DNA of 64,000 bases, from positions 62,001 through 126,000 of the forward strand of contig CAJINV010000020.1 in assembly GCA_905178155.1 (NCBI GenBank), given 5' to 3'. Shown here piece by piece: positions 1,519 to 60,200 of this stretch (its first letter is position 1; each line of letters opens with the position of its first letter). Position numbers and translations under genes: made by a program. This DNA is from Amoebophrya sp. A120. Its lineage: Eukaryota; Protista; Dinoflagellata. Under the pieces are notes generated by a model. The model had not been told where the DNA came from. It searched no databases and saw nothing but the letters and a program-made list of their open reading frames with translations.

Positions 1519-4277
1519 TTAGCTCAGTTTTCGCTTAGTATCTACCCGCATCCATGAGTGGAGCAGCGCTGATGTCTCCTGCTCCGCCTCCGGAAAATCG
1601 ATAGCAGCGTCTTCTCGCGGCTCAGGATAGTAGTTCATTTGTTGGAGCGAAGAAGAATCTACTCCGGGCGTAGATGTTGTTGCATTTGTGCCGTTTACTT
1701 CGACGTTATTTCCCGTGGTACTGCTAGTATGATCTTCCCTATCTTCCGCTCGCATCTGCTCTGCTGCAGCTCCTGTAGAAGTAGTTGCGGCCGCTCCAGT
1801 CAAACCAGCTTCACCGCTCGCACCCGGAGAAGTACTGTCGTCCTCGACATCGACTATTTCATCAGCTTGTGCTGCTTCCCGCGCCGCACGACCACGGCCG
1901 CTGTTCTGCTTTTCACTTTCGCTTGAGGAGGACTTCCCGAAGGCAGCCCCCGCGGACTCCGTCAAACTGCCCGGGAAACCGACAGATGCACGCGGATCCG
2001 ATCTAGTATTGAAGTTGATGCTGGTGTTCTTCTGAGCTGCAGTGCTGCTACTCGCCGGCTCATTTAATAACGCTACGTCTGCCTGTTCCTCTTCTTCGTC
2101 ATTCGCATCCACCGGGACCACCACGGTAGTTCCCTGGTAGAAGTTCGGGCCAGTTTGTCGATTACCGAAGAAGGACGCTCGGTTTTTCGAAATCCGCACC
2201 TCTGCCTCGATCGACTGCTGCGTCACGATTGCGCCCTGGGACTGCTGCAGCAACACGTGGTCGTGCAAGATATAAGCCGCGCAGAGCGCTGTGAGGTGGA
2301 TTCCCGTGGGCCACCAGGAAAACGCGAACGCCGGCACGTTGAAGAGAAATCCGGCGAGAAAAATGCCGAACAGAACCCCAAAAGGCACCATCAGAAACTG
2401 CACGAAAACCACGTGCCCCTCGCGGAAATAGCCCGGTTTGTACAGATGCGCCAGTTCCTTCTTCTCGAAGTCGTTGAGGCGCAAGGCAGACTGGGTGTGC
2501 AGCAGCTTCTCCCCGATCTGGGCGAACGACAGAGACCCGCTTTTCTTCGACTGCCGCAGGTCGTTTTCCTCGGCTCTCTCCAAATCTAGAAATTCCTGCG
2601 GCTGAATCCGCAGCACCTCCCGCATGAAGATCCCGGGCAGGCTTTGGTCGATATTGAAAGGAAAGATCCCCCCTCCCCATACCGAAAAGGTGCGTCACAT
2701 AAAATTTGCGATGCTGATTTGTGGTCACAAATCGTGTCTGTCTTGCAAGAAGGCAACTCCGCAGGCTCCGCCGCATTATGGAGGCGGTTTGTGATGCAGT
2801 TTGGCCTACAGCGCAGACGTTTCTCATGCCAAGCGCCTAGGCCAAAACCTCTCTAATCAGGCTTGATGTAGGCCTGCCGTCACCTTCAGCAAGACAAATC
2901 TGATTTGTGTACGCAAATCCAGCATCACAGATTTCCGCTTTGATATGGGGAGGGGGGATTTTTCTTTTCGATAGCCGATCCCGGTCAGCGCCACCGTGTT
3001 GATGCACATGCAGCCCCGTATCAACTGTAAAAATGTCTGGGTCTGGAAGATTGGAACTTGTGATGCTAACTTTGGACTCTAGAAAAATCTGTATTGCATG
3101 ACCAGCAAGAGGAGTCTAGTTTGTGCTACGCGGGGAGGGCGTTTGTCATGCGGAGTAGGCATCAGGAAGCCCTCTCAAAATCTGTGATGCGCGGTCGTGC
3201 ATTACAGACGTCCTGGGTCATGCAAAACATGCATGACAAATCTCAGAATCTTCCAGACCCAGACATCTTTACATTTGATACCCCGCCCCGTGAAGTGATT
3301 TTGGATGCCGTTCGTGATTCCGGTGAACACAACCCCCCAGGGGAAAATTGACGAGTCGTCCAGAAACGAGGAGAAATAGTGGGAGGTAGACAGGGATTCC
3401 AGCAGAACAGAAAGAATCGCGAACAGCATCCCGGCGTAGAACCGGTACGTGGTGACGTATTCGCTGACCGCCGCGCCCGCCACACAACTCAGCACGGCGG
3501 CGAGGGAATTGCGGGCGGGAATGTGCCGCGCGTCCGAGGAATATGCATTGCAAATATAATGTCTGGGTCTGGAAACTTCTGATGCAAGGAAGGGAATAGT
3601 GAAAACATTGTAATGCGCTGCCCAGCATGACGAGTTTTGCCGTGGTTCTGAGTTGCGTACTCCGCATGAGAAACTGCGTTTTTGCATGACAGACAAGAGG
3701 AGCTCTTCCTGGCCCCGCAATACAGACTGCAGAGTCATACCAAACTAGCATGACAAATCCCGCAATCTTCCAGACGCAGACTACATATTTGCATTTGATA
3801 AGGAAATGCGGTTCGCCATTTCCAAATCTCGGTCCTCCATGATCTCGTGCCAGTTGCCCGGGCGAAAGTCGTCACTGATGCTGACGCCCAGCTTGACCAG
3901 GTTGCCCGTAATCGTGCCGGAAAAAATCCCGTACCGCCACAGGTACACCACATTGCAAAACGCGGCCGCGCTGGCGAATAGAAAGGTCAGAAACCAAAGC
4001 TTCTGGGCGAGGTTGCGCGACCACCTGAGGTTTGGAAGAGAGCAGGAAGAGAACTTATTATGGATACAGTTTTTATTTGATCACTTTGCTTTTGGTTTTG
4101 ATTTTGTTACGCCTACTCAACAAACACGTCATGCATCGATACAATACACGAGCGAACGCGGGGACGACTCATTCAATATTTTTTCATTTTCAGTACTTAC
4201 CTGTTATTCGCGTTCGAAAACAGCAGATGCTGGAGCTTCCCGGGCTTCACAATCGGGTGATAGATGTCGTCTACCAT
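1519..4277 (-). CDS. DUF1275/YoaK-family membrane protein; 1 GT-AG intron (4025-4200) and 3 introners
   Basis: Spliced model MVDDIYHP...AAAFCNVVYLWRYGIFSGTITGNLVKLG...GITNGIQNHFTGRGCMCINTVALTG...; the F-S-x-x-TGN-LG and G-x-QN...T-x-x-x-TG motifs are typical of DUF1275; frame is continuous after removing the elements. Confidence 0.75.
2652..2973. mobile_element. Introner, family B (TATC..GAAAAATCCCCCCTCCCCATA TIR)
   Basis: ~30-bp TIR; flanks gtcga/gccga (1 mismatch); removal of element+5 nt gives TGI(D/G)QSLPGIFMR in frame. Confidence 0.9.
3019..3280. mobile_element. Introner, family A (TATCAAATGYAAAAATGTCTGGGTCTGGAAG TIR)
   Basis: TIR; perfect flanks ccccg/ccccg; removal gives FTGRGCMCIN. 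Confidence 0.93.
3542..3800. mobile_element. Introner, family A
   Basis: TIR; flanks aggaa/aggaa; removal gives EMANRISSDARH. Confidence 0.93.
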
Positions 4278-6849: not shown

Positions 6850-9800
6850 CTATTCCGGCGGCCTGACGTGTGCTAAATACGTCAGAAAGCCCGCGGACAA
6901 CTGCGTCCGATGCTGTCTTTGCTTTTCCAAGAACCCCCGGAGCATCAATTGCCAATGTGTGAAATTCGGGAAGACCACAGAAAGCACGCTTTCTGCTTCT
7001 TCCTCAGGCGAAGGGATAACGTCAATACTGGAGTCCAGTCGTGTGCCCAGAATATATGAAGGAGCGGAATTCATCATCCCAGAGACCACCTCCGCTGGGG
7101 ATTGATTTGGATTTCTCGACAATTTCTCCTGCAGGATGTCGGTCTTTACCGTGTGGCAGCGGTTGAACTTGAATCTCAGGACCCAGTCATTTTCTCGTCG
7201 CGGGAGCGGCTCTCGTCGGGGGACTCGTGATTTGCTCTTGCTTTGGTTGTTCCGTCTGCTGTCTTGTTGAAGTTTTAGAAGCTCTTCGTCTTTTTCTGTT
7301 TTCCCTTCAATATTTCTGGACGTTGCGCGGCTTCTTTCGGACGTCGTGTCTTCATTATCTGTCCCAATATCGACCGAAGTGTCGACAGTATGGAGTTTTG
7401 GCGTTGCGTCTTCGAAAGTAGAATCTTCTCGCTGCGACTGCTCGCCCTCGTCTCCTTCATCTGCAGTGGTCTTCACGACGTGTTCCTTACTAGTACCAGT
7501 GCGTAATTCATCCGAGCTTGCAGATGTCAAGCGGCCTGCAGTTGCAACAAGCCGCACGACCTCCTGCTCTGCTACTTCCAATTTTTTGATGTTTCCGTCT
7601 GCATCGAACAGCTCGTCCCCATCTTCGGGTGGATCAAGACCTAGTTCGGCCAAGCTTGATGCTGGCGTTGCATCTTCCAGGGAGTTGTGAGATTCTTGCT
7701 GCTCCCCAGTCGCTTGGCGTTCTCTGGAAGGATGCTGGTGCACAGTAAAAGAAACAGACGTCGACTCTTCTTGACTTTGGTCCTGCCTTTCTGCGTCGGC
7801 CGCAAGGAACGCGTCCAGTGCGTCGTCGTCAAGCTCCTCGATGTTGCGGAGAGTCGCGAGCCGGCTACTTACCTGTGAGTGCGAGGACGATTTTCAAGTG
7901 GTTTACTTTTCGGTACAAGAAGGAGAACTTGTTCGTACAGCACGTATTTATGCATATGCTAACATACTAGGCGACGTCCTTTATCACTATAAAAGAACAG
8001 CATCCAACTAACTAGTACTGGGTCCATCGCGTCAGCCTCCAAAAGGTTGCTCGGGTAGTTGGAACTTTCCTTTTGTTCTGCACCATTCTCCTTCGACGAT
8101 CCAGTCCTGACTTCGATCGCCCGACTCACGACCGGCGGGGTGATTCCGCCCGTGCTGCTGGCTCCGTCGCCCAGCAAACCTATATCAACTGCAAAAAAGT
8201 CTGGGTCTGGAAACTTGTGATGCAAGTCCGTGAACAATAAAGTGCTCTGTCATGCGCCGCCAAGCATGACAAGTTTTTTCGTAATTCTGTGCTGCGTATT
8301 TCGCATGAGAAACTGCGCTTTTGCATGACAGGCAAGAGGGCCTCTTGGTGGCCACGCAATACAGAGTGCAGAGTCATGCTAGACTAGCATGACAAATCTC
8401 GCAATCTTCCAGACCCAGACATTTTTGCATTTGATAACCTAGGTTTTGCAGCAGTATCTTACTAGTGTTGTCGTTGTAGTTTTTCGGGCGGGGCGGCGAC
8501 GGCGGCGGCGGCACGGTGGTGACCGCTAGGAGAGACCAGAACTCTGCCAGGGAGAAGCTCTTGCTGGGAAAGTAGTCAGACGGGAACTGGAGTTCCAGTT
8601 GCAAGATCGGCTCGACGAAGACGGGAACGTAGACGTCGTTTTTTACCAAGCACAGCACGAAGTTGTGGCCAACGTCGTCGAGAAACGCCGTCATTTGGAT
8701 TTTATCGTCTTTGATTTTTCCTCGGTCATGTTGTTCAGTTGTAGAGCCAGGCATTCTAGTACTAGGAGATGTAGACGTAGCTGCCCAGTTTGCGCTCACC
8801 TGGTTGGCTGGCCCGGATCGGGAGTGTGGAATGGAGAAATGATGGACGTATCAAATGCAAACATTTCTGGGCCTGGAAGAATGCAAGTTTGTCATGCTTG
8901 TCTCGCATGACTCCTACATTTGTCATGCACGTTACCCAAGCGCTCCATTTTTCTGTCATGCAGAAACGCAGTTTGTCATGCAGGATAGGCAACACCTAGA
9001 AGCCCAGAAACTTGTCATGCTGAGCCAGCACTTGTGGCCTCATCATGATACGCCACCAAGCATCACAAGTTTCCAGACCCAGACATTTTTGCAGTTGGTA
9101 GGACGTGGAAGAAGTCGATAGTGCTTGATGTGGTTCCACCCCCACTTGATGTTCGAGAACCTCCTGAATGCTGGAAGGGATAGCCTTCTTTGGGAATTTT
9201 CGTCGCTTGCAGGCTCTCGATAGAAGTACTGGTCGTGGAGATTGCAGCAGCTCCACCCGGAGCCGTCGAGCTACCGTCTACTACTTCGGTCAGAGAGGAA
9301 GTTGTCGGAGCGGAAAGAAGAAGATTATTCGACGAAACAAAATGACAGGAAGCAGAAGACGAATTAACAGCGCTGGGGGTTGCAATCCCTGATCCCACCA
9401 TTTTCCCCACCGGCGTCCCCGTTGGCGTATTGACTTTTTGCAGAGTTCCCGGACTCGGCACAAACTTGTTGCTGGGCGTCGCCACTCGGCTCGCGGGAGC
9501 GAAACCAGCATGCTGGGATGATGATGGTCGTGCTTGTTGAGAATTACTATGTGCACCACCTGTTCCACCACCACCTCCGAGCTGCTTTATTGTAAGCTCT
9601 TGCTGGCTTGTCCCAGTGGTCTGCTCCTCTTTGCTTGTTTTTATTTCCGGTTGTAAAAACACCCGTGGCAGCGTCGGGGGTAGAGAACGTGCGGTCGCAG
9701 CTGCTCCCTTGTTGATGCCCTTGATCAGATACCGGTCCACCCCCCGCTCGGGAACTACAGGCTTTATTTCGGTAGGAGCTTTATTCTGATCTTGTCGCAG

Positions 9801-12800: not shown

Positions 12801-15800
12801 ATGATTCTTGTTCGCCTTCTGAATGTCAGGCGTGGTCCGATTCTGATGAAAAACCCCGTCGTTTTCCCGGGACAACGCAAATTGCTGCCAGATGCTCGTT
12901 GACGACGAACTCCCAGTGTAGGACCGCGTTTTCTTGTTCGATACACTTGCATTTGACGTTGATCCGCCGCCAATCATGGTGTCATTGCTCAGGACAACGA
13001 CAGCTGTGTTAGCGCCTGTGTTTTGCTTGTCACTTCTATCACCGTGTTCTTGTTTGCCAGGCGGCGACAACACCGCTCCTCGCGTCTTCGCCAGTTGTTC
13101 TGTGCCGGCTTTGTTTATTTCGGCGCCAGAGGAAGTGTGTCCCCCGCCGCCTACGGTCAAACTGGGGGACGACGGAGGCAGTAGGAGATTGGCTGCGGAT
13201 ATAACAGCGCCGTTTTCAAGAACTACATCTTCCTTTCTCTCTAGCACACTGCCGGTGTCAATGAACAGCAAGCTGCGGAGCAAAATCGTTCTCACGACGA
13301 ATGTCATGGCAATCTCGATGAAAATCTCGCCGAGGAGCTGCTGGGGCATGGTTTCCAGCATGTCGGTGATGAAGCTCAGCTGCTCGCTCCAACTTCTGTA
13401 CTGCTGCGAAATCTGCTGTTGTACTTGCTGCTGTATAGAAGTTGTGGAGGGGATCATGTTGCCCATGATGTTCATGCCCCCTCCTCCGGAAGTGGCACTG
13501 CTCGTTTTATTTAAACCGCTGATCCAAGTAGAAATCAGAAGCAAAAATATCTGGGTCTGGAGGAATGCAAGATTTGTCATGCATATTTCTCATGACCCAT
13601 GATGCCTGTGATGCATGACATAGCATCGCAGACTTTTAGAGGCCTTTGTGATACCTCTACCGCATGAGAAATGCCCTATCCGTGTAGCACAAATTGTACC
13701 CCTCTTGCTGGTCATGCAATACAAATTTTTTTAGAATCCACAGACAGCATCACAAGTTGTGACCTTCCAGACCCAGACATATTTGCATTTGATACTAGAG
13801 GCATTAGAACAACTTTGCCAGCACGCAAACAGCTGCTCGCGGAGAAGATATCCTGTGCAAAAGCATCGCACTCCTATAAATGCAAGTCTTGCATTACAAA
13901 TTTTTTTCTTGTAAATCCACATGACAAATTTTATTTCTCATGCTGAGGAAATTTGTAATGCATTTATACGAGTACGATGCTTTTGCAATGCATAGCAGAA
14001 CACACGTGTCGATGAACAGTGCACAGCAGTGGGCGCGAAACCAGGACGACATAGTCGGGCTTAGCAGGGGTTTGCTGGTGACAGTGACTGAGGCTGCGGT
14101 TGTACTTCCCATAAGCAGTTCCTCCGACGTTTTGACGTCCAGCTCTTGGAGCAAATTTAGCACGTACAAGCACGCGTGCTTTGCCTTGGTATTGATCTGC
14201 GCTGTCGGACAGTGGATCAAGGCGATGCTCTATCCCATGGAAAAACGTCCCCACCAAATTTGCATGCTCACAATGTTTCTCATGCAAAGCCCCATGGCAG
14301 GCATTTTCTAGTCGCGTTTCGGGATTTGTATTGCTCCAATCAGCATAATAGCCTATGTCTGTGATGCTGCTGAACAAGCTAAACAGGGCGACAACTACTA
14401 GGCCAAACTTGTCATGCGTAACAACCAAAGCTGGCTGATTTGTATAGCAGATTTCCCTTCTTGACTATGTGGTGGGGACGTTTTTCCTCAGGATATGCTC
14501 TGCGTGAAAACCGGAAGTTTCGCGATTACCTCCTGCTCGTTGAAAAACAGTTGGAAGCAGTCCATCTCATTCAACGCAAAAGCATCGCAATCCTAATTGC
14601 AACATTGCATGACAAATCTACCTTCTTAGCTGAATCAGCATTACAAGCTTGATAGGATTCTTTTTTCTGAGAAAAATTTGTGATGCAATTACTCCTAGTA
14701 CGATACTTTTGCAATGCATAAACCTCCTCCGTCAGCAGCTTCGCGAAGTTGCACAGCAAGGTCGCGATGCTGGCCACGATCTGTATTGGAATTGGTATTC
14801 TTGACCTTGCGACGCATTACAATTGCTTTATTTTATTTCTCTGCATGGTTTGACTGGCAATGGCTTCCAGCATAATTCGCTTTCAAAAATAGGTCTTCAA
14901 CCGACGATCTACGCAGGCGTGTGCTGTGAGGTGGTCTCTTTTTGCAACAACCGATCACAGCAGCTGCAAATAGAAGAAGAGGAGAAAATTGCAATCATCA
15001 ATGGTATAGTAGTTAGAATCAATACTTTTATACGTCGGCGTCCTGGCCGCAAAGTCGCAAGTCGACCATGCAGACCTGATTGAGAAAGAAGTTTGACTGC
15101 AAAAAGGTCATCAGCACGGACCCTGGTACCGCATGCGTCAGCAAGATCTGGGTTGTCTGGATGATCTGGTGCCACACAGGCTCCAGGGCGGAAAACGGGA
15201 GCTGCGGATAAATAGCACCAGTAGAACTACTGCTGTCTCTACTTCTTCCGGGATGATGATCTCTTGAGGTCGTTGTGCTGCTACTGAAGGGTGGCAGTGC
15301 AGCATTTCCTGCTATCCCTAGCATAGATCTGGAAGTACTTGTGTTTGTTCCAAATGTTGATCTTCCCAGCATCTGAGTCGTTGGGTTTGTTTCGTTTCCA
15401 CCGGCAAGCAGTGCCGTTCGGTCGTCGACTGCGGGAAGCAGACATAGATTCTTCAGACTTCGGAAGAACTGGTAGCGAACCGCAAGTTCGAAAACCGGCC
15501 CCGTCTCGATCACTGGACCGGTTAGCCCTGATTTTTTTTTGCATGAACATGAACAAAGCACTGGTCTTCGTACAAGAACAAAACTTTGTGGTCGTCCTCG
15601 TATCTATCGAGGAAGAAGATCATGTGCCTATGTAGTACTAGTCCATACATATTACAACTCCTGCAGCTGCAAGACTCCATAAGCATGTATAATTGTACCT
15701 TTCGCCTTCCAGCTCCTCTGTGCCTCTTGCTGCTCGTGGAGCAGTAGTTCCCCTACCTTTTGGATTGCGTGCACCAAATCCCGCGCGACTTATCGCGAGG

Positions 15801-16561
15801 AGAAATTATCCCCCCTCCCCAGCATATTGACAGGGTACGTTTTCGAAAATTTGTGTTGCTGATTTATGATCACAAATCTTCTCTGTGTTGCATGAAGGCA
15901 ACTCCACAACCCCCGCCGCATTCAGCAGGCGGTTTGTCATTCTGTTGGGGCTACAGCGTAGACGTCTGTCATGCTAAGCGCCTCGGCCAAAACCTGTCTA
16001 GTACTTATTCAGGCTTGCTATGGGCCTGCAGTCTTCGCCAGCAAGACAGATCTGATTTGTGTATGCAAATTCAGCATCAGAAACTTCGTTTTGATATGGG
16101 GAGGGAGGATTTTCATTCTGATACGACTGCCACGGTGTTCTCCTGCGAAATGCGCCAGATGCCGTCCTCGCTCTTATGGAAGTGTCAGAATCGAAATTGA
16201 CAAAATCGAAAAACTTGTGATGCATAAAATCGATTTCAGTTGGAGCCTCAGTTTCCGAGTGGCGCATGACAAATTTCGGGAGCACTCAAGTCCAGTCTGT
16301 CATGCTGTGTGGGCAAAGAAGACTGCTCCTGTCATGCTACTCTGGCAGCGCATTGCGTACCCCTAAAGAGGCTTGCAATCGGCCTCATTTGCCTGCTCCC
16401 CAATACAGGCCTCCAGTGCCTTACATTTTATGCATCACAAATTTTTCGATTTTGTCGATTTCGATGTTGACACATCCATAGCTCTGCCTCCCGGCGTACT
16501 GGATCCGCGCAAAAAGATCCTCAGCCGTAACCCGCTGCTCGCGGGGCGGGACGAAAATCAT
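6850..16561 (-). CDS. CLEC16A: CLEC16A/TT9-like FPL-domain protein, very long; 8 introners plus canonical introns
   Basis: Reconstructed IQKVGELLLHEQ...VFELAVRYQFF...QIIQTTQILL...FLQSNFFLNQ...ATLLCNFAKLLTEExDCFQLFFNEQ...LPVFTQSIALIHCP aligns by eye with the FPL domain; frame runs through the 4.4-kb exon 9101-13532 to the stop at 6850; start codon tentative. Confidence 0.72.
8183..8436. mobile_element. Introner, family A
   Basis: TIR; flanks accta/accta; removal gives LQNLGLLGDG; interior similar to 3542-3800. Confidence 0.93.
8849..9100. mobile_element. Introner, family A
   Basis: TIR; flanks ggacg/ggacg; removal gives DFFHVHHFSIP. Confidence 0.93.
13533..13794. mobile_element. Introner, family A (opposite orientation to 3019-3280)
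   Basis: TIR with eroded left end; flanks gtaga/ctaga; removal gives CSNAS(T/S)WISG. Confidence 0.88.
13849..13994. mobile_element. Short introner, family D (TATGCATTGCAAAAGCATCG TIR)
   Basis: ~35-45-bp imperfect TIR; flanks gaaga/gcaga; removal gives DTCVLLREQLF. Confidence 0.82.
14231..14495. mobile_element. Introner, family B2 (TATC..GAAAAACGTCCCCACC TIR)
   Basis: TIR; flanks tgctc/tgctc; removal gives VFTQSIALIH. Confidence 0.9.
14568..14720. mobile_element. Short introner, family D, degenerate
   Basis: Imperfect TIR (gcaaaagcatcg/cgatacttttgc); flanks catct/aacct; removal gives LLTEE(V/M)DCFQLFF. Confidence 0.72.
15791..16123. mobile_element. Introner, family B
   Basis: TIR; flanks cgact/cgact; removal gives NTVAVARDLV; colinear with 2652-2973. 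Confidence 0.92.
16175..16480. mobile_element. Introner, family C (TATGGAWGTGTCA..ATCGAAATYGACAAAATCGAAAAA TIR, ~55 bp)
   Basis: Long TIR; flanks gctct/gctct; removal gives YAGRQSEDGIW. Confidence 0.92.
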
Positions 16562-46899: not shown

Positions 46900-49800
46900 T
46901 TATTTTCCTGATAAAGTACTCATTCTGTACTTGTAGTCTAAGCGGAAATCGAAATTCGAATCGAAAAAATCATATTTGCTCATAATCCGTCCTGTTCGCC
47001 GACATATCCTATCGGGATCCAGGTCTTCAGACTGTAGGCGACGGCATATGGATTGCAAATATCCCTGGGTGTGGAAGAATGCAAGTTTGTCATGCTTGTC
47101 TGGCATGACTCGAGAGTCTGTGTTGCATAGGCACGAAAAGGGGCTCTTACCTGTCACGCTGCAAGAACGCAGTTTGCCATGCGGAATACGAAACACATGG
47201 CAGCCAAAAAATGTGTCAACATGCATAGCTGCGTATTGCAGTGCGTCTATCATTTCTTTTATAGCATTACAAGTTTATTCCAGATCCAGACATATTTGCA
47301 TTTGATACGGCGTTCACCCGATTTACTATTTCGTGCGTTCCTGCTCGTTTTTCGTTTTCCTCGCTTAGTTGAGGTAGAGGAAGACGTACGATCCACGTAA
47401 GGCAGTCGTGTTGAGGAGGAGTAAGAGTAGTTCTTGGCGAGACGACCTGTAGGTGATCGTCGTCGTCGAGGTAGCACGATTTGCTTCGAATACCACTTTA
47501 GTAAAAATGCATGATTAAGATTTTTATTTTCTACGAATGATCCCGAAAGAATGTGGTAAAGGAATGAATATCTATAGGGAAAACAAACCGCAACAGGGTG
47601 AGAACTCGTCAGCTCTACTGTACGAGAAACAACACAGCAGCGAGCTGCCTGGCTCCTGCCGAATTATACTTTCTTACCCAAAGATAATTTGCACATCTCG
47701 TGGACTGGCGCGTGGCTGGTTCCTGCTCTCCCTCGTCTCGCGTCGTTCCTTCGCTTGATCTCCGGCACCGAGGTAGTACCAGGAGCGGCTATCAAAAGTA
47801 AAAATGTCTGGGTCTGGAAACTTCTGATGCGGGGTGGCGTCTCATGATGAGCCTACAAATGCTGTCTCAGCATGACAAGTTTCTGAGCTCCTAGGTGTTG
47901 CCTATTCTGCGCCACGAACTGCGCTTCTGCATCGCAGAAAAACGGAGCTCTTGGGTAACGTGCATGACATTGGCGGTCTACCGGCAGGACGTCCGGCAGG
48001 ACGTAGACGGACGGGTAACGTGCATGACAGATTTTATGCACTATCCGCAGATGGGTCATCCTGTGGGATGAGCAATTCCTTCTGCGGAGAAGTTAAGGCG
48101 CCCGAATCATGGAGCGCCAACCCCTCTCCTGCCAGAAGAAAGCAGAAGCAAGGGTCTCTGTCCGTTTATAGGCACGAGACCGCATGAACCATCCGCAGAC
48201 CAGTGCAAAACGATACATCCCCCGAGGGGGTGAACCAGGCTGGGAGGGTGGGGAAAACTAACAACAGGCCCGAGGGCCATCTTCACACACATACAACTTT
48301 CTCAGGTTCTGGCTACCGTACAACATGCTAGGGCGGGGCCGATACATAAAATACCGCCCGCCCAGCCTCAGCCTTGGCTCACAGGCTCGCAAGACTGCTG
48401 CTGCCCGGGCATACATTTAAGAGTCATGCCAGACAAGCATGACAAACGTGAATTCTTCCAGACCCAGACACTTTTACAGTTGATAGCGTCGTTCTTTCGC
48501 ATCTCCGGCACCGAGGTACCAGCGGCTATGCATTGCACATATGTCTGGGTCTGGAAGATTCCGAGATTTGTCATGTTGGAAGGCTAAGGGCAGGGCGTCC
48601 CATTCGTTTATAAACTTAAAACGGTAGCCACCTACCCAGCAAACTCTGAGTGGAACAAGCACGGGCAAAGCGATTTGTCATGCAGTTTTTCAAGCTCCGC
48701 CAGGTCTGGAATGCAGGGCCTAGCATCACAGGTTCTGCAGCCCATTGGTGATGCCTATTCATTCTGCATGAGAAATGCCCCCTCAACATGGCCAGAAGTG
48801 GGGACCTTTTGCAAGTCATGCGAACCTGTACAAACGGGCACCCCTGACGGTACGGGCCCTCTTATACACAAAATGTACATGAGTAAACACGAAAAGTGTA
48901 CAAAAAAAGACCGAAATTGTAGAAAAGAGAAGACGGACGGTCCTGTGCAACCGGGCACCTCCGAACACGGATTTGTATAGAAAATAGCGAAAAAAGAGAT
49001 GAAGTCAGAGCTGGAAGATGTGAGTGGATAGCGCGCGCGCGCGCGACTTGATGTGAGTGGGAACACGGGCGCTGCAGAGCAGGGCGGGGAAGTGAGGGCA
49101 AAATAGCTTGAAAGAGGGGCAAATGTATTCATCTAGGCGAGCGACGTGCTTGGCTATGGCGGCGCCGTGCTCACGAAGGCCTGTAGATCTATTGATGACG
49201 GGCCCGGTGGCTGCGCGCGGCGTGTACATAGTCATCATGCAGAGTTGGGCCCTGTGCAAAACGGACCGACCTGTTAATCACGGGGCCTCCGGAGATTACC
49301 GCCGGGCCTGTGTATTTGGTAACCCTGTACGGTGCGAACGGGTACCTTTGGCGGCACATACATTTGTATAAAAAATGCAAATTTCGTTTGTTTTCCAATA
49401 GCATAATTTGTTTGCAGGTGCCTGTTTGTACTGGGGGCCCCGTACAGTACGGGGGCTCCGTTTCCACTGATACACATGCAACACAGATTTTTGTATGATC
49501 CGCAACACGCATCACAAGTTCGGATTCTTCCAGACCCAGACATTTTTACATTTGGTAGCGTCGTTCTTTCGCATCTCCGGCACCGAGGTACCAACGGCGG
49601 TCGTCGTGGAACGACCAGTCTTCACGGTACTCCTACGCAGTAGTCGCAGCTTCTCGTCCTCGTCTGTATGCATTGGAAAGAACCACTTTGTGTCCGGGAC
49701 TGGATGAAAGTGAAACTCGTGTTGATGCTGCGTCGCGAGGAAAACACATTCGTAGAACGCCACAATTGACGGGCCACGGCTCAACAGCATCACAAAATTT

Positions 49801-50341
49801 TTAGCTTCTAGGATTTTTGTCTGAATTCTGCACGAGCATGACAAAGTGCGTTCTTGAATAACAGAAAAATAAGGTTTTTGGATCAACTACACGTGCATGG
49901 CAAACCTGCGATTCATTTTCATGCTAGCCGAGGAAGACAAATAACCCTGAATTCTTAATATTCTTCCATAACCCAGCCATCTTTCCATTTGATAGGCTTC
50001 CTCCCCCGCTGACGACGCTGAAAAGTCATTGCCCCAGAGCTGCGCACCGGTGCCGGTAAACCTTTTTTTACGTTCAAGATGAAATAAGCGTGCTCTATTT
50101 GTCGTGCTAATTTTTTAGACCCGTCAAGTCGTGTTATTGAATGCGTTACCAAAAAGGTAACTCTTCGATGGATATACTTTCTGTAAAGCTTCCGTTTCAG
50201 CTTCGCCTCGGTCCATTCTGACATGCGCTCCATCTTCTCCGGTCCACTTGAGCAGTAGCTTATCGGTGCATATCGACTGCAAAAGTATCGTAAAGTGTTG
50301 GTGTAGTGGGTCGAAGTATACTTGAAAATCATGATGCACAA
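46900..50341 (-). CDS. Hypothetical multi-exon protein with a 12-aa tandem repeat; 5' extent unresolved
   Basis: In-frame joins across introners at 47047, 47790 and 48527 (GTSVPEMRKNDA repeats; GERRRLQSED); no domain recognised. Confidence 0.5.
47047..47307. mobile_element. Introner, family A
   Basis: TIR; flanks cggca/cggcg; removal gives SGERRRLQSED. Confidence 0.88.
47790..48485. mobile_element. Introner, family A, enlarged (696 bp) by an internal insertion
   Basis: TIRs intact; flanks gcggc/gcgtc; ends are homologous to 8849-9100 in reverse orientation; foreign sequence ~48030-48415. Confidence 0.85.
48527..49557. mobile_element. Introner, family A, enlarged (1031 bp) by two nested insertions
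   Basis: TIRs intact; flanks gcggc/gcgtc; backbone colinear with 34501-34763. Confidence 0.87.
48826..49474. mobile_element. Nested element with subterminal IRs and 3' hairpin (Helentron/HINE- or MITE-like)
   Basis: gtacaaacgggcacc (48828) / ggtgcctgtttgtac (49417-49431), followed by hairpin ccccgtac-a-gtacgggg; absent from the sister introner at 34501. Confidence 0.55.
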
Positions 50342-51479
50342 TTAAGTACTCGCTCCTACTTGACAGATTTCTTAAATTCTTTTTAAACCTCAAGAAGTTG
50401 TTTGAAAACTTCCAAATTCTGTATGTAGCGACTTATACCACGCACCAGTTCTACGATATAACTTTGTTTTGTGCTGCATAAGGATAACGCACAATTGATT
50501 GTTTCATCTTCCAGCAAGTGCGGCACCCGTTGTTTGAGCTCGTCCCGACCGGTGGCGTTGTTTGACACATAGTTCGCCAGGTGGTGCAGACTCAGCTCTA
50601 CTGTTCCACCACGAGCGCGGCGGTCTCCTGCGTTCGGTATGGAACTCTCAAACCACGTTACACTCTCAACTGTTACAATGCAAGAATGGCAAAAGTGAAA
50701 GGAGGAAGATTGCCATTGCGTCTTTTGCATTACAGATTTGAGACGGTGGATTCTAGTCCTATTTAGCGCGTCGAGAAGTTGCCATGCGAAGAAGGCTTGA
50801 TCGTGTGCTGTGAAGAGTCAGAGTGATTGCATGACAAATCATGTAAACAGTTGAGAATGCAACGTTTGAGAGTCCCATATTCGGGGCGGCTGAAATATCA
50901 CCAGGCCGACGTTGATCTTCTTCCACGCCCGGGAAAACCTCCATAAAGGCATTATTACCTGTAAGTAAAGGGTAAAAGAATATATCACTGCCTATGGAAT
51001 GGCGAACGACACAACCAAAATCCGCCTGGTTCTTCTAAGACCACGAGCTCCAGGGACAGGTCGGAAAGAAGCATCCAGCTCCTAACTGAGAATAAAAAGC
51101 ACCAGCGCAGACCCTCTCCTAGTTATACCCGGCGCGGCCCCAACGCCAAAAAGAACTCTCCACCTAGAAGTCCCGGTGCCGAAATAAACGCCCGTCGTCA
51201 GGCCAAGCTGCCAAAAAGTGAACAAGAACTCTGAAAGCAGTCAGCAACTCTTGGCAGAGAAAGGCTGCAGCTAGTACTGTTGAGCTGCTCTGGGGAAGGT
51301 ACGCTGCAAATTTCCCCCGGCTGGGGGAAGGCCTCACAGGCATTTCCCACCTCACTGGCTATTTGCTACCGCAAACTTGTTTCCCCCGCTGGGGCAGGCC
51401 CTCACGTGATCCTGCGTGCCATGTTCACGTTCACTCGCCGTCGCCACACAGGCTGCAGCATGGAGCTGCATTAACTCGG

Positions 51480-53820
51480 TTATTGTTGTTGTATAAATAT
51501 AGTACGTGTTGAAGTTGATGTTGACTCCTGCGCCAGATGAAAATGATGAAAAATAATTTCATGTGGATTATTATACTCACCGTAGCCTCCAAAAGTCAGC
51601 GTGCAGTCCGGCGAAGATGAATCAGTATCATCTCCGAGGCTGCTCGTCCTCTCGACCAGCATGAGCGGCGTCGTGGGTACTGGTTCTTGCAGCTGTTGTT
51701 CTTGGTCATTATTACTACTATTCATCTCGTCCAGGCGGCTGCGACCAAAAGTTGGTGTGGAAAGAGAGGACTTGTCTTCATCTTCCTCCATGATCTTCGT
51801 CGATGATTCGAATTCCTGATCTTGAGATTTATTTTCTTCGATTACGGGCTTCATGACTGCTGTTGTTTTGCATTCCTCCTGGAACAAAACAAGAGGCTCG
51901 GTCGAAGGCGAGACGTGCTGGCCGACTACGACGTCGCCAGGCATGCATCCTGAGCAAAAACGTCCGCAACATCCTAGAGTGCTTCGATCATGCAAAGCTG
52001 CAAGCTGCCCATAGCGTTTCGCATGCGCAGAGGCAGACCGCCACGATCAGCGCACGCTAATGCTATCTGAGAGTTTGTCATGCAACAATCAGCATGCAAT
52101 AAAAAGGGAAAAAATACCTATCTAAATCCTAAAACCCTAAGTCGTGGAACGCAATTGCCCGGCCGGGGCGGGCGAAGAAAAGTCGACGATGAAGCCAAAA
52201 TAACTAGCATGAGATGATCGATTAATGTGACGCGGCGGAACTACTTGCTAAACGCGACTACGTATATTACGAGCCCAATAAACTTGTCATGCGTATCAGC
52301 CAAAATTTGCCGATTTGTGTACTAGCAAAATCACCATCTTGACTCTGGGGAGGTAGGGACGTTTTTACCCGGGATAGCGTGTTGACGTCTTCTTCGCTCA
52401 ACAAGCTGCTGATGCTGAGGCTGAGGCTGCCGTAGCTGTTGTCTCTGTTCATTGGTTTATTGCTCCTGCTCGGAGTTGTCATCTGCTTATCTTCATCGGG
52501 CATGATCAAGACTGGGGTGAACGGCGAGACGAAGAGGGGGTCAGTGACCAGAGGCATCACTGCGCTTTTCTGGTGGTGGTCAGAAGTTCTTGTACTGGTT
52601 GTATTATTACGACTCTCCTCTCCTTTGAGCAGGACGCAGCTGCAATATGAGAGTCCACAACTCCGCCCCCTCGATCCCCCTATTACTATTTGTAATCAAT
52701 GCATGAACAGCAGTAGACGTGGGAGCATCGGCAAGAGAAAAACGCACTTTTTGCATGACAAATTCACACAGGATTGTACTTCTGTTTGCCCTGCCGGCAC
52801 CTGTCATACAAACACTGCTAGGAGAGTAGCGAAGGGTTTGCCTTTGCGTTTGGCTTTTTGCATCACAAATGTATGAGAAGGAGGGGGGGTTGTGCTTGTG
52901 CACCACTCTCATACGTGGTAAGCTGGAGATTCTAGGTCTTGTAGCTGAAACGAAGACAGTGGAGTTCTTGAAAGTGGTACTTCGAGTTCTGGAACTTGTT
53001 CTACCTTCTGCACACCTCCAGGAGCCACGCCTTGCGAAGTAGTTGATGGTGATGTTGCTACTTCCGGTTCCACCGCCATGCTGCTGTTACTGCTGATATT
53101 GCTGATCCTGTCGTCTTGCAATTCCTCCTCGTCTTCGCTTGTTGTACTATAGCAGTGGTTGTCACTAACAACTTCTGTTGTTGTCTCATTCACGACGCCG
53201 GAGGACAAGCAACGGCGAAATATCCACTTGTGGGCACGACGGATGAAACAAGTTCTCGTGCGGTCGCGCACCTCCTATACACTGCAAAATTATCGTACCC
53301 GTAGTTCCCGTAGTACTTAATAAAAATTGAGATAGATCAATTATGCGTGACATCAAGCACCAGTCATCTGTGTCTGGTAAATGCGCATGACGAATTCGAT
53401 TTTTGCATTTGCGAAAAAATGTAAGTAAAAATGTAATTCATGCTAGCACGATACTCTTGCACTGCATACCTTCTCGGATGCGTATCAAATGTAAAAATGT
53501 CTGGGTCTGGGAGATTGCGAGATTTGTCATGCGTTGTTCGGATCACGCAAATGGCGTCTGATGCAGGCAAAAGCATCACAGGTTTTGAGCACGCCTCATG
53601 ATGCCTGTCGCGCATGAGAAACTTCCTACTTGCGTGCCAAGAAATGGACAGCTTTTGGCGCTCATGCAACACAAATTTTTGTGTGTTCCAAAGTTTGCAT
53701 CACACGTTCCAACCCTTCCAGACCCAGACATTTTTACAGTTGATAATGCGAGAGTATGTGCGAAACTCTTCGCCGCTTCAATCATCGCCGCTTCGCCACC
53801 CATTTTGCTCCTGATGTCAG
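51480..53820 (-). CDS. Hypothetical low-complexity protein fragments (multi-exon, 5' end missing or unresolved)
   Basis: Coding-like segments 51480-51990, 52300-52645, 52914-53271 and 53746-53820 joined across introners. Confidence 0.35.
52646..52913. mobile_element. Degenerate introner (TATGAGAGT TIR), flanking repeats lost
   Basis: tatgagagt..cacaa / ttgtg..actctcata; internal gcatSacaa motifs; removal of element+5 nt joins ORFs 52909-53271 and 52267-52560 in frame. Confidence 0.6.
53483..53745. mobile_element. Introner, family A
   Basis: TIR; flanks atgcg/atgcg. Confidence 0.92.
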
Positions 53821-53875
53821 TATGCATTGCAAATACCCATCTGGGTCTGGAAGCGTGCGAGTTTGTAAAAATGCT
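53821..53875. mobile_element. Orphan family A terminus
   Basis: tatgcattgcaaatacccatctgggtctggaag with no matching cagacccaga end seen downstream in the window. Confidence 0.65.
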
Positions 53876-56420: not shown

Positions 56421-57249
56421 TCAGGATAAGATGCTGATAGGAGCCCGCGGACGGGGATGCGCCCCCGACGTATCAAGAGGAAAAATTCCCCCTCCCCATA
56501 TCGAAACGAAGTTTCTGATGCTGGATTTCCGTACACAAATCAGATTTGTCTTGCAGTAGAGGACTGCGGGCATATGTCAAGCCTCGGCCGAGAGGTTTTG
56601 ACGTAGGCGCCTAGCATGGCAAACGTGTATGCCTTAAGCCCAACAGCATCACAAACCGCCTGCAAAATGCAGGGGGCTCTCTGGACTTGCCTTCTTGCAA
56701 GACAGACAAGATTTGAGGTCACAAATGTGCATCACAAATTTTCAGACGGATGCGTTTTCAATATGGGGAGGGGGGATTTTTCTTTACGATACGACGTCCT
56801 GGAGCAGTTGTGCGGTCGAAGTACTGCAGGATATCGTGGACGGGGCCTCGCTGATGTTGCTGCTGTACTTGTTAAAGTTGTTGGACGCTTGGCTGCCGCC
56901 CCCATGCGTCGAACCTCCTTGCTGATTTTGCGATATGCCGCGCTCGAGCAGCATGGAGGAGGACGTTTTGATGTTGAACTTGAGGCTTTGCAAAATGTCC
57001 ACCGGCGGCGACTGCGCCTCGTTACTATTAATGTTGCCGTTTGTTGTTGTTGCACTAGTTCCGTTTCCGGGCAGGAGATTTGTGTTATTTCCTGAAATTG
57101 TGGTACTTGCTGATGTTGTGGATGTTCCTGGACCACCTGGACCGGCACCGGGTATGTTGATCGGGTTATTTGCATTATTTCCCCCGCCGCCCGGAGGTCC
57201 TCCTCTTGTCCCCACGGAGAGGTTGATGTGACTATCGAGAGCACCTTTT
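56421..57249 (-). repeat. Duplicated copy of 39594-~40426 (CCR4 5' region), flanked by a 30-bp direct repeat
   Basis: Near-identical sequence including an unspliced introner; DR ttcacgttctcgccgtcaKtcccatgcttc at 56393-56422 and 57248-57277. Confidence 0.93.
56471..56791. mobile_element. Introner, family B (passive copy of 39644-39964)
   Basis: Same length (321 bp), same cgacg flanks and same exon context. Confidence 0.93.
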
Positions 57250-60200
57250 CACGTTCTCGCCGTCAGTCCCATGCTTCCGCCGCTGCCCTGCGTGGCGCTG
57301 AGGTCGGTTCGCCCGGCGGTGACCGCCTTGACGGCCGTCAGCGTGGTCTGGGCCTCTACCAGCGCGGACGCCTGCTGCTTCTCCTTCTGCACCCGCTTGC
57401 GGTCCTGGTACATCAGGTAGACCGCAATGCAGACGACAATGGAGTAGGGCAGGACTCCCAGGCAGATCCCGCCCACCGCGCAGGCGTACACCCACCCGTC
57501 CGCTAGACCGTCGCTGTCCGCGTAGAAAATCACGAAGAACCGGTTCTGCAGCCGGTTGCCCTGCAACCGCTTCACGATAACGGTGTCCAGGAAGAGGTGG
57601 TCCTTGATGCCCTGCAGCTGCTGCGCGGAGGTGACGGCGGAGAAGGACGCCATCTCCCAGATTTTCTGGAACTCGATCACCCCCGTGTTTTTCAGCGAGA
57701 GGTCTACCAGGATGGTGCCGTCGTCGGCGACGAGGAAGCCTTGGTAGTCCCCGGGCAGGAAGTGCGGGTCAACCAAAGAGTCTTTCAGCTTCTCGATCTC
57801 CAGCGTGAGTTTGCCGTGCAGAAAAACGCGGTCCTGCTCCGTCAAACCCTCCACCTCCTGTCGGTGCATCTGGCTCGCGTCCAGCTTGAACAACAGCGAG
57901 ATGGTTTGGATAGTGTCTACCTGCTGCGAATCGATGTTCACCTGCGTGTCGCCGGGACTGCTGCGCTCCGGCAGTTTGAGCTCCCACTCGGTGTAAATAC
58001 CCCTATCAAATTGGTCACTCAGGAACGGCGCCGTGGTAGTGGAAGTTGTCGTGGAAAAGAAGTCGTGCAAAGTTGTCGTGACGCCACCCTGCTGCTGCCC
58101 AGATAAACCTCGCTCGACCAGATTGTGCGCGTTCCGGTAGGCGAAGTGGTTCGCTTGGTAGGGCAGACACACAACGCCCGGCGCGGACACGCTCGGGGTC
58201 ACCAACTGCTGGTTTTGGAGTCGTTGCGCCGTCTGCGTGTACCAGAGCGCCGGGTGATTCGTGCTGTTTGTCAGATTGGAACTGCTCTTTGCCAGCTGTT
58301 CTAGCGACCCGCATTTCTGCGGACAGCTTTTGCACTCCAGATCTTTCACCTGCGCCCGCAGCGCCTGGTATTGCTGTCGGTACTCGTAGTTCCGCAACTC
58401 TAACGGGAGCGCGATGCCCGTCGTACTACTTCCGTTCTTGGCCTGCTCCAGGATGTACTCCTCCCCGAGCACGGCGACCACGGAAAGCAGGTCCGGGTAG
58501 TGCCCCGGCGGGCAGAAGTAGGAGCTTCTTTCCGGGCCCGCGGGCCCGGCCCCCGTGTTCGGGCTGATCCGCTGAGCGTCCTCTTCTTCGCTGCCCGCCG
58601 GCGGCGCCGTGGTCTCCGGCGTCTGGTCGTCGCGGAGAGGCAAAATCCCGGCATACATCTCAAAGGGCATCTTGTTCAGCTTATGGAAGTGTGAGAATCG
58701 AAATCGACAAAGTGAAAGTTCAAATACTTTCTCATGCATAAATTCTAAAGCATGAAGCGCCTCTCTTGCAGGGATGGCAAGCGAGGCCAACTGTCAGCCT
58801 GTTTATTGGCGTCTATGCGATAGAGCTGCTAAGTAAAGCAGCATGACAAAAGACGCGCTCTTTCCCTAAACAGTATGACAAACTGGATTTAGGTGGTGCC
58901 AAAGTTTGTCATGCGCCGCTTGGAAATTGGGCTTCCAACTGGTATCGATTCTATGCATCACAAGTTTTCAACTTTATCGATTTCGATCCTGACGCTCCCA
59001 TGATACAGCTCCAGTGCGCTGTTGTTTACCATATCCTCGTGGTGGATGTTATTCGCGCTCATCGGCGGCACCATCGACGAATCCCGGTTCGCGAGCGTGT
59101 GGTCATTCAGCACGCGGCGGTCAGCGCGTTGGTGTTGCTCTTTATCCTCCACCGTTCTCGTGCCTCCATCACCGTGACTTGCGGCGATTTGTTCACTAGA
59201 AGATGTAGAAATCGTGTGGTCTCTACTCTGATCTGATGCACCGGTAGAACTCTCCCCCGAAGTCGTGGTCCGGCGACGTGCGCGCGCCCTTTGTTCGCCC
59301 GGCGTCGCCCCCTCGAGTGCAGCTTCTAGTCCCATCATCTGCAAACCGGGCAGCATGATTGGGGCATCGAACGCACGCACCGCGGTCAACGGGTCGGCTG
59401 ACAGGCGAAACACGTTGTGCTTCTCCAGCCTATCAAAGTGAAAAAAGCCTCCACCCCATATCGGAAACGGAAGATGCGCGAATTTGTGATGCTGTATTTG
59501 AGTACACAAATCGACTTGTATTGCTAGAGGACCAAGAGACTAAGCTGCGGCCTACATTGCAGGTAATCTGTCATGCTGTTTCCCACTTCCAGTTGCCTCC
59601 TGTCATCCTGGAGCTGCAAGGCTTTCCCAGCACGCTAGACAGCACTACAGTCCGCATCTTTTGCCTTCTAGCATCACAAAGCTGATTTGTGACCCCAAAT
59701 CTGCATCACAGATTTCCGTTTTGATATGGGGAGGGGGCATTTTTCATTGTAATACAGCCGCTCCTTTGTCAAGTCCACCTGCATCAGTCGCTGGTGCCAA
59801 TCCGCGTTTGCGATGGAGAGGTTCCGATTGCAGGCAAAGGGCTCCGCAATACACGAGGGGTACAGGTCGCTCTCAAACTGCAGCATGTCGTAGGTGCCGA
59901 TCCGGCGGAACCGCATGCCGCCCCGGGTCAAGCTCAGGTCCTGCGTCTTGTTCGGGACGAAGTAGGCCATCTGCAGCATGCTGAGCTCCGGAACCCCGGA
60001 GAGTCCGGCCAACACGACGATCTGCAGCGAGAAGAAGTCGAACGGGTTCCGCAACGCGCCCAGGGAGATCCCGTGAGCCAGGGACTCCACCGGAACCATC
60101 AGTTTTCCCTGCACGTACCCGTCGAAAGCGGCCTCGATGCGCGCGGCGCCGCCGTGCCTGTGGGGAAAATAATGGTCGTGGGGGGTGAGAGGTGAAGACC

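What the first reader, a model, noticed from the sequence alone, without database searches (positions are those of the whole stretch)
2652..59754. Genome-wide non-canonical intron system: ~30 TIR elements obeying a strict 'element + 5 nt' removal rule
Seen: 29 complete elements (146-340 bp, two enlarged) from at least 6 TIR families, mostly TAT...(A/G)TA, flanked by 5-bp direct repeats (16 perfect, 10 with one mismatch, 2 with two, 1 lost). Deleting the element plus one repeat restores the ORF, including conserved CCR4, FPL and DUF1275 motifs. In the junctions examined, no in-register GT-AG pair explains the removal. Known: inverted/direct-repeat introners have been reported in Amoebophrya genomes, but to my knowledge their excision machinery is unresolved. 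Inference: a precise, structure-guided removal pathway coexists with ordinary GT-AG splicing in the same genes.
Basis: partly seen in the sequence, partly recalled or inferred. Interest (0 to 1): 0.9.

Follow-up and report, generated by a model that had tools for sequence, protein, structure and literature searches.

The report
Fixed cut rule in Amoebophrya introners
These are the already published transposon-like introns of the marine parasite Amoebophrya A120; RNA contigs and transcript-based proteins show them removed with five extra bases, most likely one before and four after the element, likely by a spliceosome that no longer needs the usual GT-AG ends.

Summary
Observation confirmed; the system is published. 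Two window genes match NCBI 'Amoebophrya sp. A120' proteins at 100%. Farhat et al. 2021 described these TAT-ended introners with 5-bp direct repeats, but left the border position unknown. I count 34 complete elements. Element+5 removal holds for 12 of 13 junctions in two transcript-based proteins. It also fits RNA contigs and the flanking frames of 115 of 121 elements from another assembly. The exception uses an inner TAT 24 nt downstream. What I add: 13 junctions with unequal repeats allow one common register, intron = N-TAT...ATA-NNNN. It also holds where the repeat is lost, so it is a geometry of the machinery and not a repeat effect. The transcript-5' T is invariant (288 of 288) while its 3' mirror varies (10 of 288). 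Neither G+1 nor a final AG is enriched. This polarity likely points to a relaxed spliceosome that keeps the U+2 contact rather than a separate pathway; no lariat or catalyst was tested. Four literature searches did not show the register. The scan noted similar introns in other genomes before.

The parts
2652..2973 (-). Element 1 (322 nt), repeats gtcga/gccga; DUF1275 gene
   Evidence: P0001 needs element+5 and register 4 or 5
3019..3280 (-). Element 2 (262), perfect 5-nt repeat
   Evidence: +5 in P0001
3542..3800 (-). Element 3 (259), perfect repeat
   Evidence: +5 in P0001
4025..4200 (-). Canonical GT-AG intron in the same DUF1275 gene
   Evidence: fits P0001
5413..5512 (-). Predicted GT-AG intron in a WD40 gene whose donor is G followed by an element-type TAT end (decayed half element)
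   Evidence: frame restored in silico only
8183..8436 (-). Element 4 (254), perfect repeat
8849..9100 (-). Element 5 (252), perfect repeat, 5' end TAC
13533..13794 (-). Element 6 (262), one mismatch, 3' end ATT
   Evidence: orthologue P0005 aligns across
13849..13994 (-). Element 7 (146), one mismatch
   Evidence: gap-free alignment to P0005 across the junction
14231..14495 (-). Element 8 (265), perfect repeat
   Evidence: gap-free alignment to P0005
14568..14720 (-). Element 9 (153), two mismatches, 3' end ATG
   Evidence: P0005 aligns with a one-residue gap at the junction
15791..16123 (-). Element 10 (333), perfect repeat
16175..16480 (-). Element 11 (306), perfect repeat
21580..21919 (-). 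Element 12 (340), perfect repeat; CRAL-TRIO gene
33678..33983 (-). Element 13 (306), one mismatch; CCR4-like gene
   Evidence: RNA contig piece starts at 33984, register >=3
34501..34763 (-). Element 14 (263), one mismatch, 3' end ATG
   Evidence: RNA contig arithmetic gives skip 34496-34763 = element+5
34847..35003 (-). Canonical GT-AG intron spliced in the same RNA contig
35536..35854 (-). Element 15 (319), one mismatch, 3' end ATG
   Evidence: RNA piece ends at 35530, register 4 or 5
36032..36283 (-). Element 16 (252), perfect repeat, 5' end TAC
37604..37813 (-). Element 17 (210), two mismatches
38801..39008 (-). Element 18 (208), perfect repeat
39323..39601 (-). Element 19 (279), perfect repeat
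39644..39964 (-). Element 20 (321), perfect repeat
   Evidence: RNA piece starts at 39965
40512..40690 (-). Element 21 (179), one mismatch
47047..47307 (-). Element 22 (261), one mismatch
   Evidence: +5 in P0002; RNA piece ends at 47040
47790..48485 (-). Element 23 (696, enlarged), one mismatch
   Evidence: +5 in P0002, register >=2
48527..49557 (-). Element 24 (1031, enlarged), same repeats as no. 23 in a tandem exon unit
   Evidence: +5 in P0002, register >=2
49667..49994 (-). Element 25 (328), two mismatches; two donors: outer TAT and an inner TAT at 49970
   Evidence: P0002 uses 49663-49971 or 49662-49970; RNA contig length fits the outer donor
50271..50480 (-). Element 34 (210), repeat fully lost (gtgca/aggat), missed by repeat-based scans
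   Evidence: P0002 removes 215 nt, register 2, 3 or 4
50638..50879 (-). Element 26 (242), perfect repeat
   Evidence: +5 in P0002
50959..51580 (-). Canonical GT-AG intron in the P0002 gene (others at 47447-47677, 50062-50177, 53811-53995)
51946..52376 (-). Element 27 (431, enlarged), one mismatch, 3' end ATG
   Evidence: RNA contig and P0002: +5, register >=3
52646..52913 (-). Element 28 (268), repeat lost (tgcaa/cgtgg)
   Evidence: RNA contig and P0002: +5, register 3 or 4
53276..53468 (-). Element 29 (193), one mismatch; GT-AG in register 4
53483..53745 (-). Element 30 (263), perfect repeat
   Evidence: +5 in P0002
53821..53866 (-). Half element (3' end only) inside GT-AG intron 53811-53995
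56471..56791 (-). Element 31 (321), duplicate of no. 20 with its flanks
58682..59005 (-). Element 32 (324), perfect repeat
59431..59754 (-). Element 33 (324), perfect repeat

Best explanation
These are the Amoebophrya A120 introners: short inverted-repeat elements, likely non-autonomous DNA transposons, that are removed from mRNA with five extra bases, most likely as N-TAT...ATA-NNNN and likely by the ordinary spliceosome in a relaxed form. Shown: the anatomy, 5-bp target duplication, absence from RNA contigs and transcript-based proteins, presence in DNA contigs, and the length rule. Inferred from 13 junctions: the cut falls 4 nt into the upstream repeat and 4 nt after the element, so the element's first T is intron +2 and its last conserved A is -7. 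Inferred mechanism: the 5' end works as a donor without its G (N-UAU, like the local GTA/GTAT donors). The spliceosome would keep the U+2:U6 contact and would have dropped the G+1:G-1 and AG requirements together. The 3' cut would be set by distance from the ATA end, with the terminal hairpin bringing the ends together and the -7 A a candidate branch point (untested). Both ends carry the same TAT-N5-G-N-AAA motif in mirror image and 1+4 equals the 5-bp duplication, so an insertion in either orientation at any site would be spliced out without a trace.
For: Length rule: 12 of 13 element junctions in P0001 and P0002 fit only element+5 (deletions +2..+8 and -4..+14 tried); the A120 models were built from BLAT-aligned transcripts (PMC7789003 section 25). 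RNA contigs of X1: skip 268=263+5 at no. 14, and 709=(431+5)+(268+5) at nos. 27-28, while X5 contigs run through these elements. Frames on both sides, called independently, fit +5 mod 3 in 115 of 121 elements of JACKZZ01 loci, including 20 of 20 with imperfect repeats. Register: >=4 at nos. 1, 15 and the inner donor of 25; <=4 at nos. 28 and 34; eight more (13, 14, 21, 22, 23, 24, 27, 29) are compatible; only 4 fits all. Polarity: TIR position 1 deviates 0 of 288 at the transcript 5' end and 10 of 288 at the 3' end; position 3 deviates 13 against 3 (Fisher p=1e-4). The opposite directions argue against a simple strand mutation bias. No G+1 or AG enrichment (GT 95, AG 25, both 8 of 288). Farhat's Table S4 lists nine top A120 motifs, all N-T, and nine A25 motifs, all TT. 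In the yeast P complex G+1 pairs with G-1 and U+2 with U6 A51 (10.1101/212811 passages). Nearly all spliceosomal proteins and U2/U4/U5/U6 are present in A120, U1 snRNA undetected. TIR ends pair in most folds (mean pair probability 0.65-0.73 at positions 1-3 over 30 elements).
Against: No lariat, branch point or catalyst was observed. The register rests on 5 deciding junctions, read from contig-piece coordinates and from one annotation; RNA run X1 is flagged 'RNA?' and may not be independent of that annotation. RNA was laid only on 33,500-53,499, as contigs, so junction frequencies, retention and minor registers are unknown. No. 25 breaks the outer rule in the annotation. The proposed branch context is weak (-9 is T in only 15 of 32). 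Invariant T+2 could also serve a non-spliceosomal nuclease. The codon-likelihood test did not separate register 4 from 5. The strand caller was validated on the genes it was trained on. Table S4 motifs fit register 1 as well as 4 if strands were mixed. About 5 of 30 elements fold without paired ends.
Confidence: 0.6

Rival explanations
1. A separate non-spliceosomal, hairpin-guided cut-and-ligate pathway, as proposed for euglenid nonconventional introns, removes the elements at the same fixed register.
For: Ends pair in most folds. No GT or AG bias at all. Euglena introns also have paired motifs with unequal spacers (N3 and N5-6) and unknown machinery (PMC12501133 abstract). U1 snRNA undetected in A120.
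Against: The invariant position is the one a spliceosome reads (+2 U). The mismatch at +4/-7 breaks pairing in 13 of 288 and TIR positions 4, 5, 7 are mismatched in 35-50%, so a perfect stem is not what is kept. The weaker-pairing inner TAT of no. 25 serves as donor. A half element serves as a predicted GT donor in the same register (5512).
Confidence: 0.22
2. The length is fixed at element+5 but the cut position varies among elements or molecules, as Farhat et al. drew it.
For: PMC7789003 Fig. 3 and S23 legends call the sites variable, 1-5 nt from the inverted repeat. Only 5 junctions decide my register; each alone allows 2-3 positions.
Against: All 13 informative junctions share register 4 and none requires another; perfect repeats make any aligner's placement ambiguous, which explains the reported spread.
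Confidence: 0.1
3. The deletions are reverse-transcriptase template switches across a hairpin flanked by direct repeats (recalled artefact class), or the elements are excised from DNA.
For: Hairpin plus direct repeats is the anatomy that favours such skips (recalled). All RNA evidence here is cDNA-derived.
Against: Removal is exact where no repeat is left (nos. 28, 34). Elements carry stops in most frames. Flanking frames fit +5 in 115 of 121. An orthologue aligns across the junctions. DNA-like run X5 holds elements contiguous with exons.
Confidence: 0.04
4. Nearby ordinary GT-AG sites explain the removal.
For: In-register GT-AG exists for 3 of 33 elements and some in-frame GT-AG pair within about 15 nt for 16 of 33.
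Against: Transcript-based proteins and RNA contigs use element+5 at non-GT-AG ends, including nos. 23, 28 and 30 which have such nearby pairs. At no. 25 an adjacent GT..AG option one base away gives a residue that P0002 does not have.
Confidence: 0.03

Closest known systems
Amoebophrya A120 introner elements / non-canonical introns (Farhat et al. 2021, PMC7789003; read: abstract, sections 10-12, 16, 25, 32, 35, supplement text parts 2-3)
   Same: Same organism by 100% protein identity. IR motif starting TAT, seven looser bases, then an A run. 5-bp direct repeats (Fig. S19 legend), about 240 nt, mixed with GT-AG introns in the same genes, RNA-supported, no transposase inside.
   Different: That paper reports variable splice sites, border position unknown and no clear signature. 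Here one register (1 before, 4 after), an invariant +2 T, transcript polarity and independence from the repeat are inferred. I could not see the figures, which may hold more.
Amoebophrya A25 introners (same paper)
   Same: TIR/DR non-canonical introns; top motifs all begin TT and the IR begins TTA, which also gives +2 T, +3 A if the intron starts at the IR.
   Different: Different families, about 120 nt; register not tested here.
Euglena nonconventional introns (PMC12501133 abstract and introduction; PMC11282704 passages)
   Same: Non-GT-AG ends, paired terminal motifs, unequal spacers to the two cuts, coexistence with spliceosomal introns.
   Different: Signature N3CDG...CHGN5-6|R with purine preference at the exon start; A120 has TAT...ATA, spacers 1 and 4, and no exon-start bias.
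Fritillaria borealis non-canonical introns (PMC13326754 abstract; PMC11282704 passages)
   Same: MITE-derived, TIR+TSD, and removed by a spliceosome adapted to non-canonical ends: the precedent for my best explanation.
   Different: Ends are mostly AG-AC/AG-AT; adaptation through U2AF paralogues and snRNA m6A, U1 present. In A120 +1, -2 and -1 are all free.
Micromonas/Aureococcus and other TSD-co-opting introners (PMC9860276 passages; PMC12130899 passages)
   Same: Non-autonomous TIR transposons whose removal restores the original mRNA by taking element plus one TSD length.
   Different: They carry or recruit GT/GC and AG from the element or TSD and so need particular target sites; A120 targets show no such bias.

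Membership tests
Amoebophrya A120 introner elements | Located in the A120 genome | tested here: met
   Two window genes are 100% identical to NCBI 'Amoebophrya sp. A120' proteins
Amoebophrya A120 introner elements | Terminal inverted repeats starting TAT, seven looser nt, then at least three A | tested here: met
   TAT at 1-3, G at 9, AAA at 11-13 in 288 elements
Amoebophrya A120 introner elements | 3-5 nt direct repeats at the borders | tested here: met
   5 nt only; lost in nos. 28 and 34
Amoebophrya A120 introner elements | Repeated families, spliced out with non-GT-AG ends | tested here: met
   Families; RNA contigs and proteins
MITE / non-autonomous TIR DNA transposon | TIRs, fixed-length TSD, short, non-coding, multi-copy | tested here: met
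   two ORFs inside the 1031-nt element had no Pfam hit
MITE / non-autonomous TIR DNA transposon | A cognate autonomous transposase | not testable with these tools
   No whole genome held; Farhat found no transposase in A120, Gozashti 2025 assigns A120 introners to diverse TIR transposons
U2-type spliceosomal intron (consensus definition) | GT/GC donor and AG acceptor | tested here: not met
   8 of 288 GT-AG at register 4, at background level
U2-type spliceosomal intron (consensus definition) | U at +2, purine at +3 | tested here: met
   T 288 of 288, A 287 of 288 under register 4
U2-type spliceosomal intron (consensus definition) | Lariat with 2'-5' branch adenosine; dependence on U2/U5/U6 | not testable with these tools
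   No raw reads of this strain covered the exons (X9 15 reads on repeats, X10 0)
Euglenid nonconventional intron | N3CDG ... CHGN5-6|R signature | tested here: not met
   Ends are N-TAT ... ATA-N4; first exon base unbiased

The most novel reading that the evidence does not exclude
Amoebophrya runs a spliceosome that has abandoned both terminal signals at once (G+1 and the AG acceptor, which pair with each other in the active site), keeps only U+2/A+3, and measures the 3' cut 4 nt past a hairpin end, branching at the -7 A. One unpublished rule, N-TA at the donor, would cover both A120 and A25. It would make any TAT-ended 5-bp-TSD transposon a perfect intron in either orientation at any site.
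Probability: 0.4. Interest if true: 0.8.

Novelty: already known. Interest (0 to 1): 0.5.

Why it matters
The elements themselves are published from this genome, so their discovery is not new. The open question since 2021 is how they are cut out, and the borders were reported as variable and unknown. A single register with a polar, +2 U-centred donor turns this into direct tests (allele counts at mismatched repeats, lariat mapping at -7, spliceosome inhibition). It also gives a rule for annotating tens of thousands of A120 introns. If the spliceosomal reading holds, it is a natural spliceosome that ligates exons without the G+1:G-1 and AG contacts thought to be universal, and it explains how transposons invade exons at no cost.

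Tried and rejected
No whole genome was held, so U6/U5/U1 and transposases could not be examined. No RNA holder was on record as RNA; X1-X4 are guesses. X1 is treated as RNA because its contigs also lack GT-AG introns. Raw-read runs X9 and X10 did not cover exons (15 and 0 reads). The joints table was swamped by repeat copies from X5, so junctions were read from the pieces table. No RNA was laid on 2,300-16,700. Enumerating canonical introns to explain the 735-nt gap of X1 record 5 was uninformative (34,511 and 50-67 solutions). It was resolved only with P0002, post hoc among four options and needing loss of one 36-nt tandem unit (assembly collapse or exon skipping, not distinguished). Codon-likelihood test of register on 59 mismatched elements: 4 and 5 tie (-583.1, -582.9), 0-1 are worse. 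TSD base composition: no position clearly biased. The full-length A120 protein of the 6.8-16.6 kb gene was not found, so nos. 6 and 9 stay untested for register. Viral contigs held no match to the element motif. Rfam: three sub-threshold miRNA-like hits only, no snRNA; the CTTACCTGG repeats at 28.5-29.8 kb are not U1 by that test. No look-alike earlier finding by place. No transposon superfamily assigned.

Full report
Observation. The window holds 34 complete inverted-repeat elements and two halves, 16% of its bases. A strict scan gave 24 hits against 0 and 0 in simulated sequence. A profile scan blind to the terminal three bases gave 22 hits, all true, against 1, 1 and 0. Among the first 33 the flanking repeat is 5 nt and no other length (mean match 0.87 against 0.17-0.39): 17 perfect, 12 with one mismatch, 3 with two, 1 lost. 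Three are enlarged (431, 696, 1031 nt). BLAST groups them into 5 multi-member families and 6 singletons; nos. 20 and 31 are one insertion duplicated with its flanks. All host frames are on the minus strand.

Identity. Two window genes match proteins named 'Amoebophrya sp. A120' by NCBI at 100% (P0001, 574 aa; P0002, 746 aa). Farhat et al. 2021 (PMC7789003; I read the abstract, sections 10-12, 16, 25, 32, 35 and supplement text parts 2-3, not the figures) report that over 60% of A120 introns are non-canonical and RNA-supported. Their inverted repeats start TAT, run seven looser bases and end in an A stretch, with 3-5 nt direct repeats and a 5-bp example in Fig. S19. That is this system. They state that splice sites are variable relative to the hairpin, that the border position is unknown, that U1 snRNA was not detected and that the mechanism is open. 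Later papers seen as passages (PMC12130899, PMC9860276, PMC11282704, PMC11453091, PMC12005148) add no register in those passages. Four full-text searches listed no paper whose title or abstract start addresses it; the library lacks most subscription journals.

Length rule. The A120 models were built from BLAT-aligned transcripts. In P0001 all 3 elements fit only element+5 among +2 to +8. In P0002, 8 of 9 listed elements fit only +5 among -4 to +14, and the newly found no. 34 does too (215 = 210+5). No. 25 is the exception: the model starts the intron at an inner T-TAT 24 nt downstream and ends it at the usual place. In the one RNA lay (33,500-53,499), contigs of run X1 give a skip of 268 = 263+5 at no. 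14 together with a GT-AG intron, and 709 = 436+273 at nos. 27-28. They give 184 = 179+5 at no. 21 if a 30-nt contig overlap is assumed. Piece ends fall at the expected borders of nos. 13, 15, 20, 22 and 29. Contigs of X5 run from exons into elements, one of them through nos. 27-29. The whole of X1 record 5 (2,956 nt) equals the model length if no. 25 uses its outer TAT and one 36-nt tandem unit is missing; this was the one exact fit among four options tried. So both donors of no. 25 are likely used. An orthologue (P0005) aligns across nos. 6-11 after +5 removal, gap-free at 7 and 8, with a one-residue gap at 9. A motif scan brought 142 loci, all from public assembly JACKZZ01. Of the elements there whose two flanking frames could be called independently, 115 of 121 fit +5 modulo 3, including 20 of 20 with imperfect repeats.

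Register. Where the two repeat copies differ, the mRNA shows which copy each base came from. Let k be the number of bases kept from the upstream copy. k is 4 or 5 at no. 1, no. 15 and the inner donor of no. 25. It is 3 or 4 at no. 28 and 2, 3 or 4 at no. 34. It is at least 3 at nos. 13, 21, 27, at least 2 at 23, 24, 29, and at least 1 at 14, 22. Only k=4 fits all 13. The intron is therefore inferred to be N-TAT...ATA-NNNN. Because nos. 28 and 34 and the inner donor have no repeat, the five bases are a property of the cutting, not of the duplication. The RNA readings use the tool's stated leftmost convention, which I checked on two GT-AG introns and on no. 20.

Polarity. I oriented elements by coding score: 282 were detected in the loci, 258 passed a strand margin and a symmetric TAT filter, and 257 had full flanks; 31 window elements were added (nos. 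24 and 31 dropped as duplicates, no. 34 not included). The first T is intact in 288 of 288 transcript-5' ends; its mirror at the 3' end differs in 10 (7 keep a G-U pair). The third base differs in 13 5' ends and 3 3' ends. Window and loci agree in direction (0 vs 5 in each for position 1); pooled Fisher p = 1e-4. The directions are opposite at the two positions, so simple strand mutation bias is unlikely. Repeat composition is near background: GT at +1/+2 in 95, AG at the end in 25, both in 8 of 288. Farhat's Table S4 lists nine top A120 motifs, all with T second and eight with A second-last, which is what N-T donors give when both strands are pooled; all nine A25 motifs start TT. The strand caller scored 33 of 33 in the window but was trained on the same genes.

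Mechanism. In the yeast P complex, G+1 pairs with G-1, A-2 with the branch adenosine, and U+2 with U6 A51 (10.1101/212811, passages). The free positions here (+1, -2, -1) are those contacts; the invariant one (+2) is the U6 contact. Local GT-AG donors mostly read GTA, and one predicted GT-AG intron has G directly before an element-type TAT end (5413-5512). I therefore favour a relaxed spliceosome (0.6), with the 3' cut measured from the ATA end, the hairpin (ends paired in most of 30 folds) joining the ends, and the conserved -7 A a candidate branch point. A tunicate precedent exists (PMC13326754, abstract). Against this: no lariat or catalyst was seen, the branch context is weak, and a hairpin-guided nuclease-ligase as mooted for Euglena (PMC12501133, abstract) could also be polar (0.22). 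Variable register (0.10), cDNA artefact or DNA excision (0.04) and nearby GT-AG sites (0.03) fit worse.

Verdict. The system is the published A120 introner class, so it is already known. The fixed 1+4 register and the +2 U polarity were not seen in the papers I could read and make the open question of its splicing directly testable. Interest 0.5.

Noticed in passing
window 47758-49591: A 36-nt coding unit is tandemly repeated with different enlarged elements (nos. 23, 24) at the same site and with the same mismatched repeats; the X1 contig is one unit short (exon skipping or assembly collapse).
   Followed up: partly
window 39594-40415 and 56421-57241: 825-nt duplication at 97% identity that carries element 20/31 and only the last few bases of element 19.
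   Followed up: partly
window 5413-5512 and 53811-53995: Two GT-AG introns contain only one element end each, suggesting introners decaying into canonical introns.
   Followed up: partly
window 24200-30200: About 6 kb without confirmed genes, full of tandem and inverted repeats (54-, 32-, 110-nt units; three 63-nt copies at 27210, 28458, 30110; hairpins containing CAGGTAAG/CTTACCTG). No Rfam family reached threshold.
   Followed up: partly
window 48580-49460, 47970-48415, 52090-52270: Inserts that enlarge elements 24, 23 and 27; two ORFs in no. 24 had no Pfam hit; possibly nested elements.
   Followed up: partly
window 53469-53482: A 14-nt stretch between elements 29 and 30 gives a 9-nt micro-exon contribution in P0002.
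   Followed up: no
window 1522-63806: All recognised genes are on the minus strand: DUF1275, WD40, a large unnamed protein with orthologue P0005, CRAL-TRIO, CCR4-like, peptidase S28 (no element), Dus.
   Followed up: partly
loci L001-L142: All 142 motif matches come from one public assembly (JACKZZ01) with the same families at up to 95.5% identity and no exon match to the window.
   Followed up: partly
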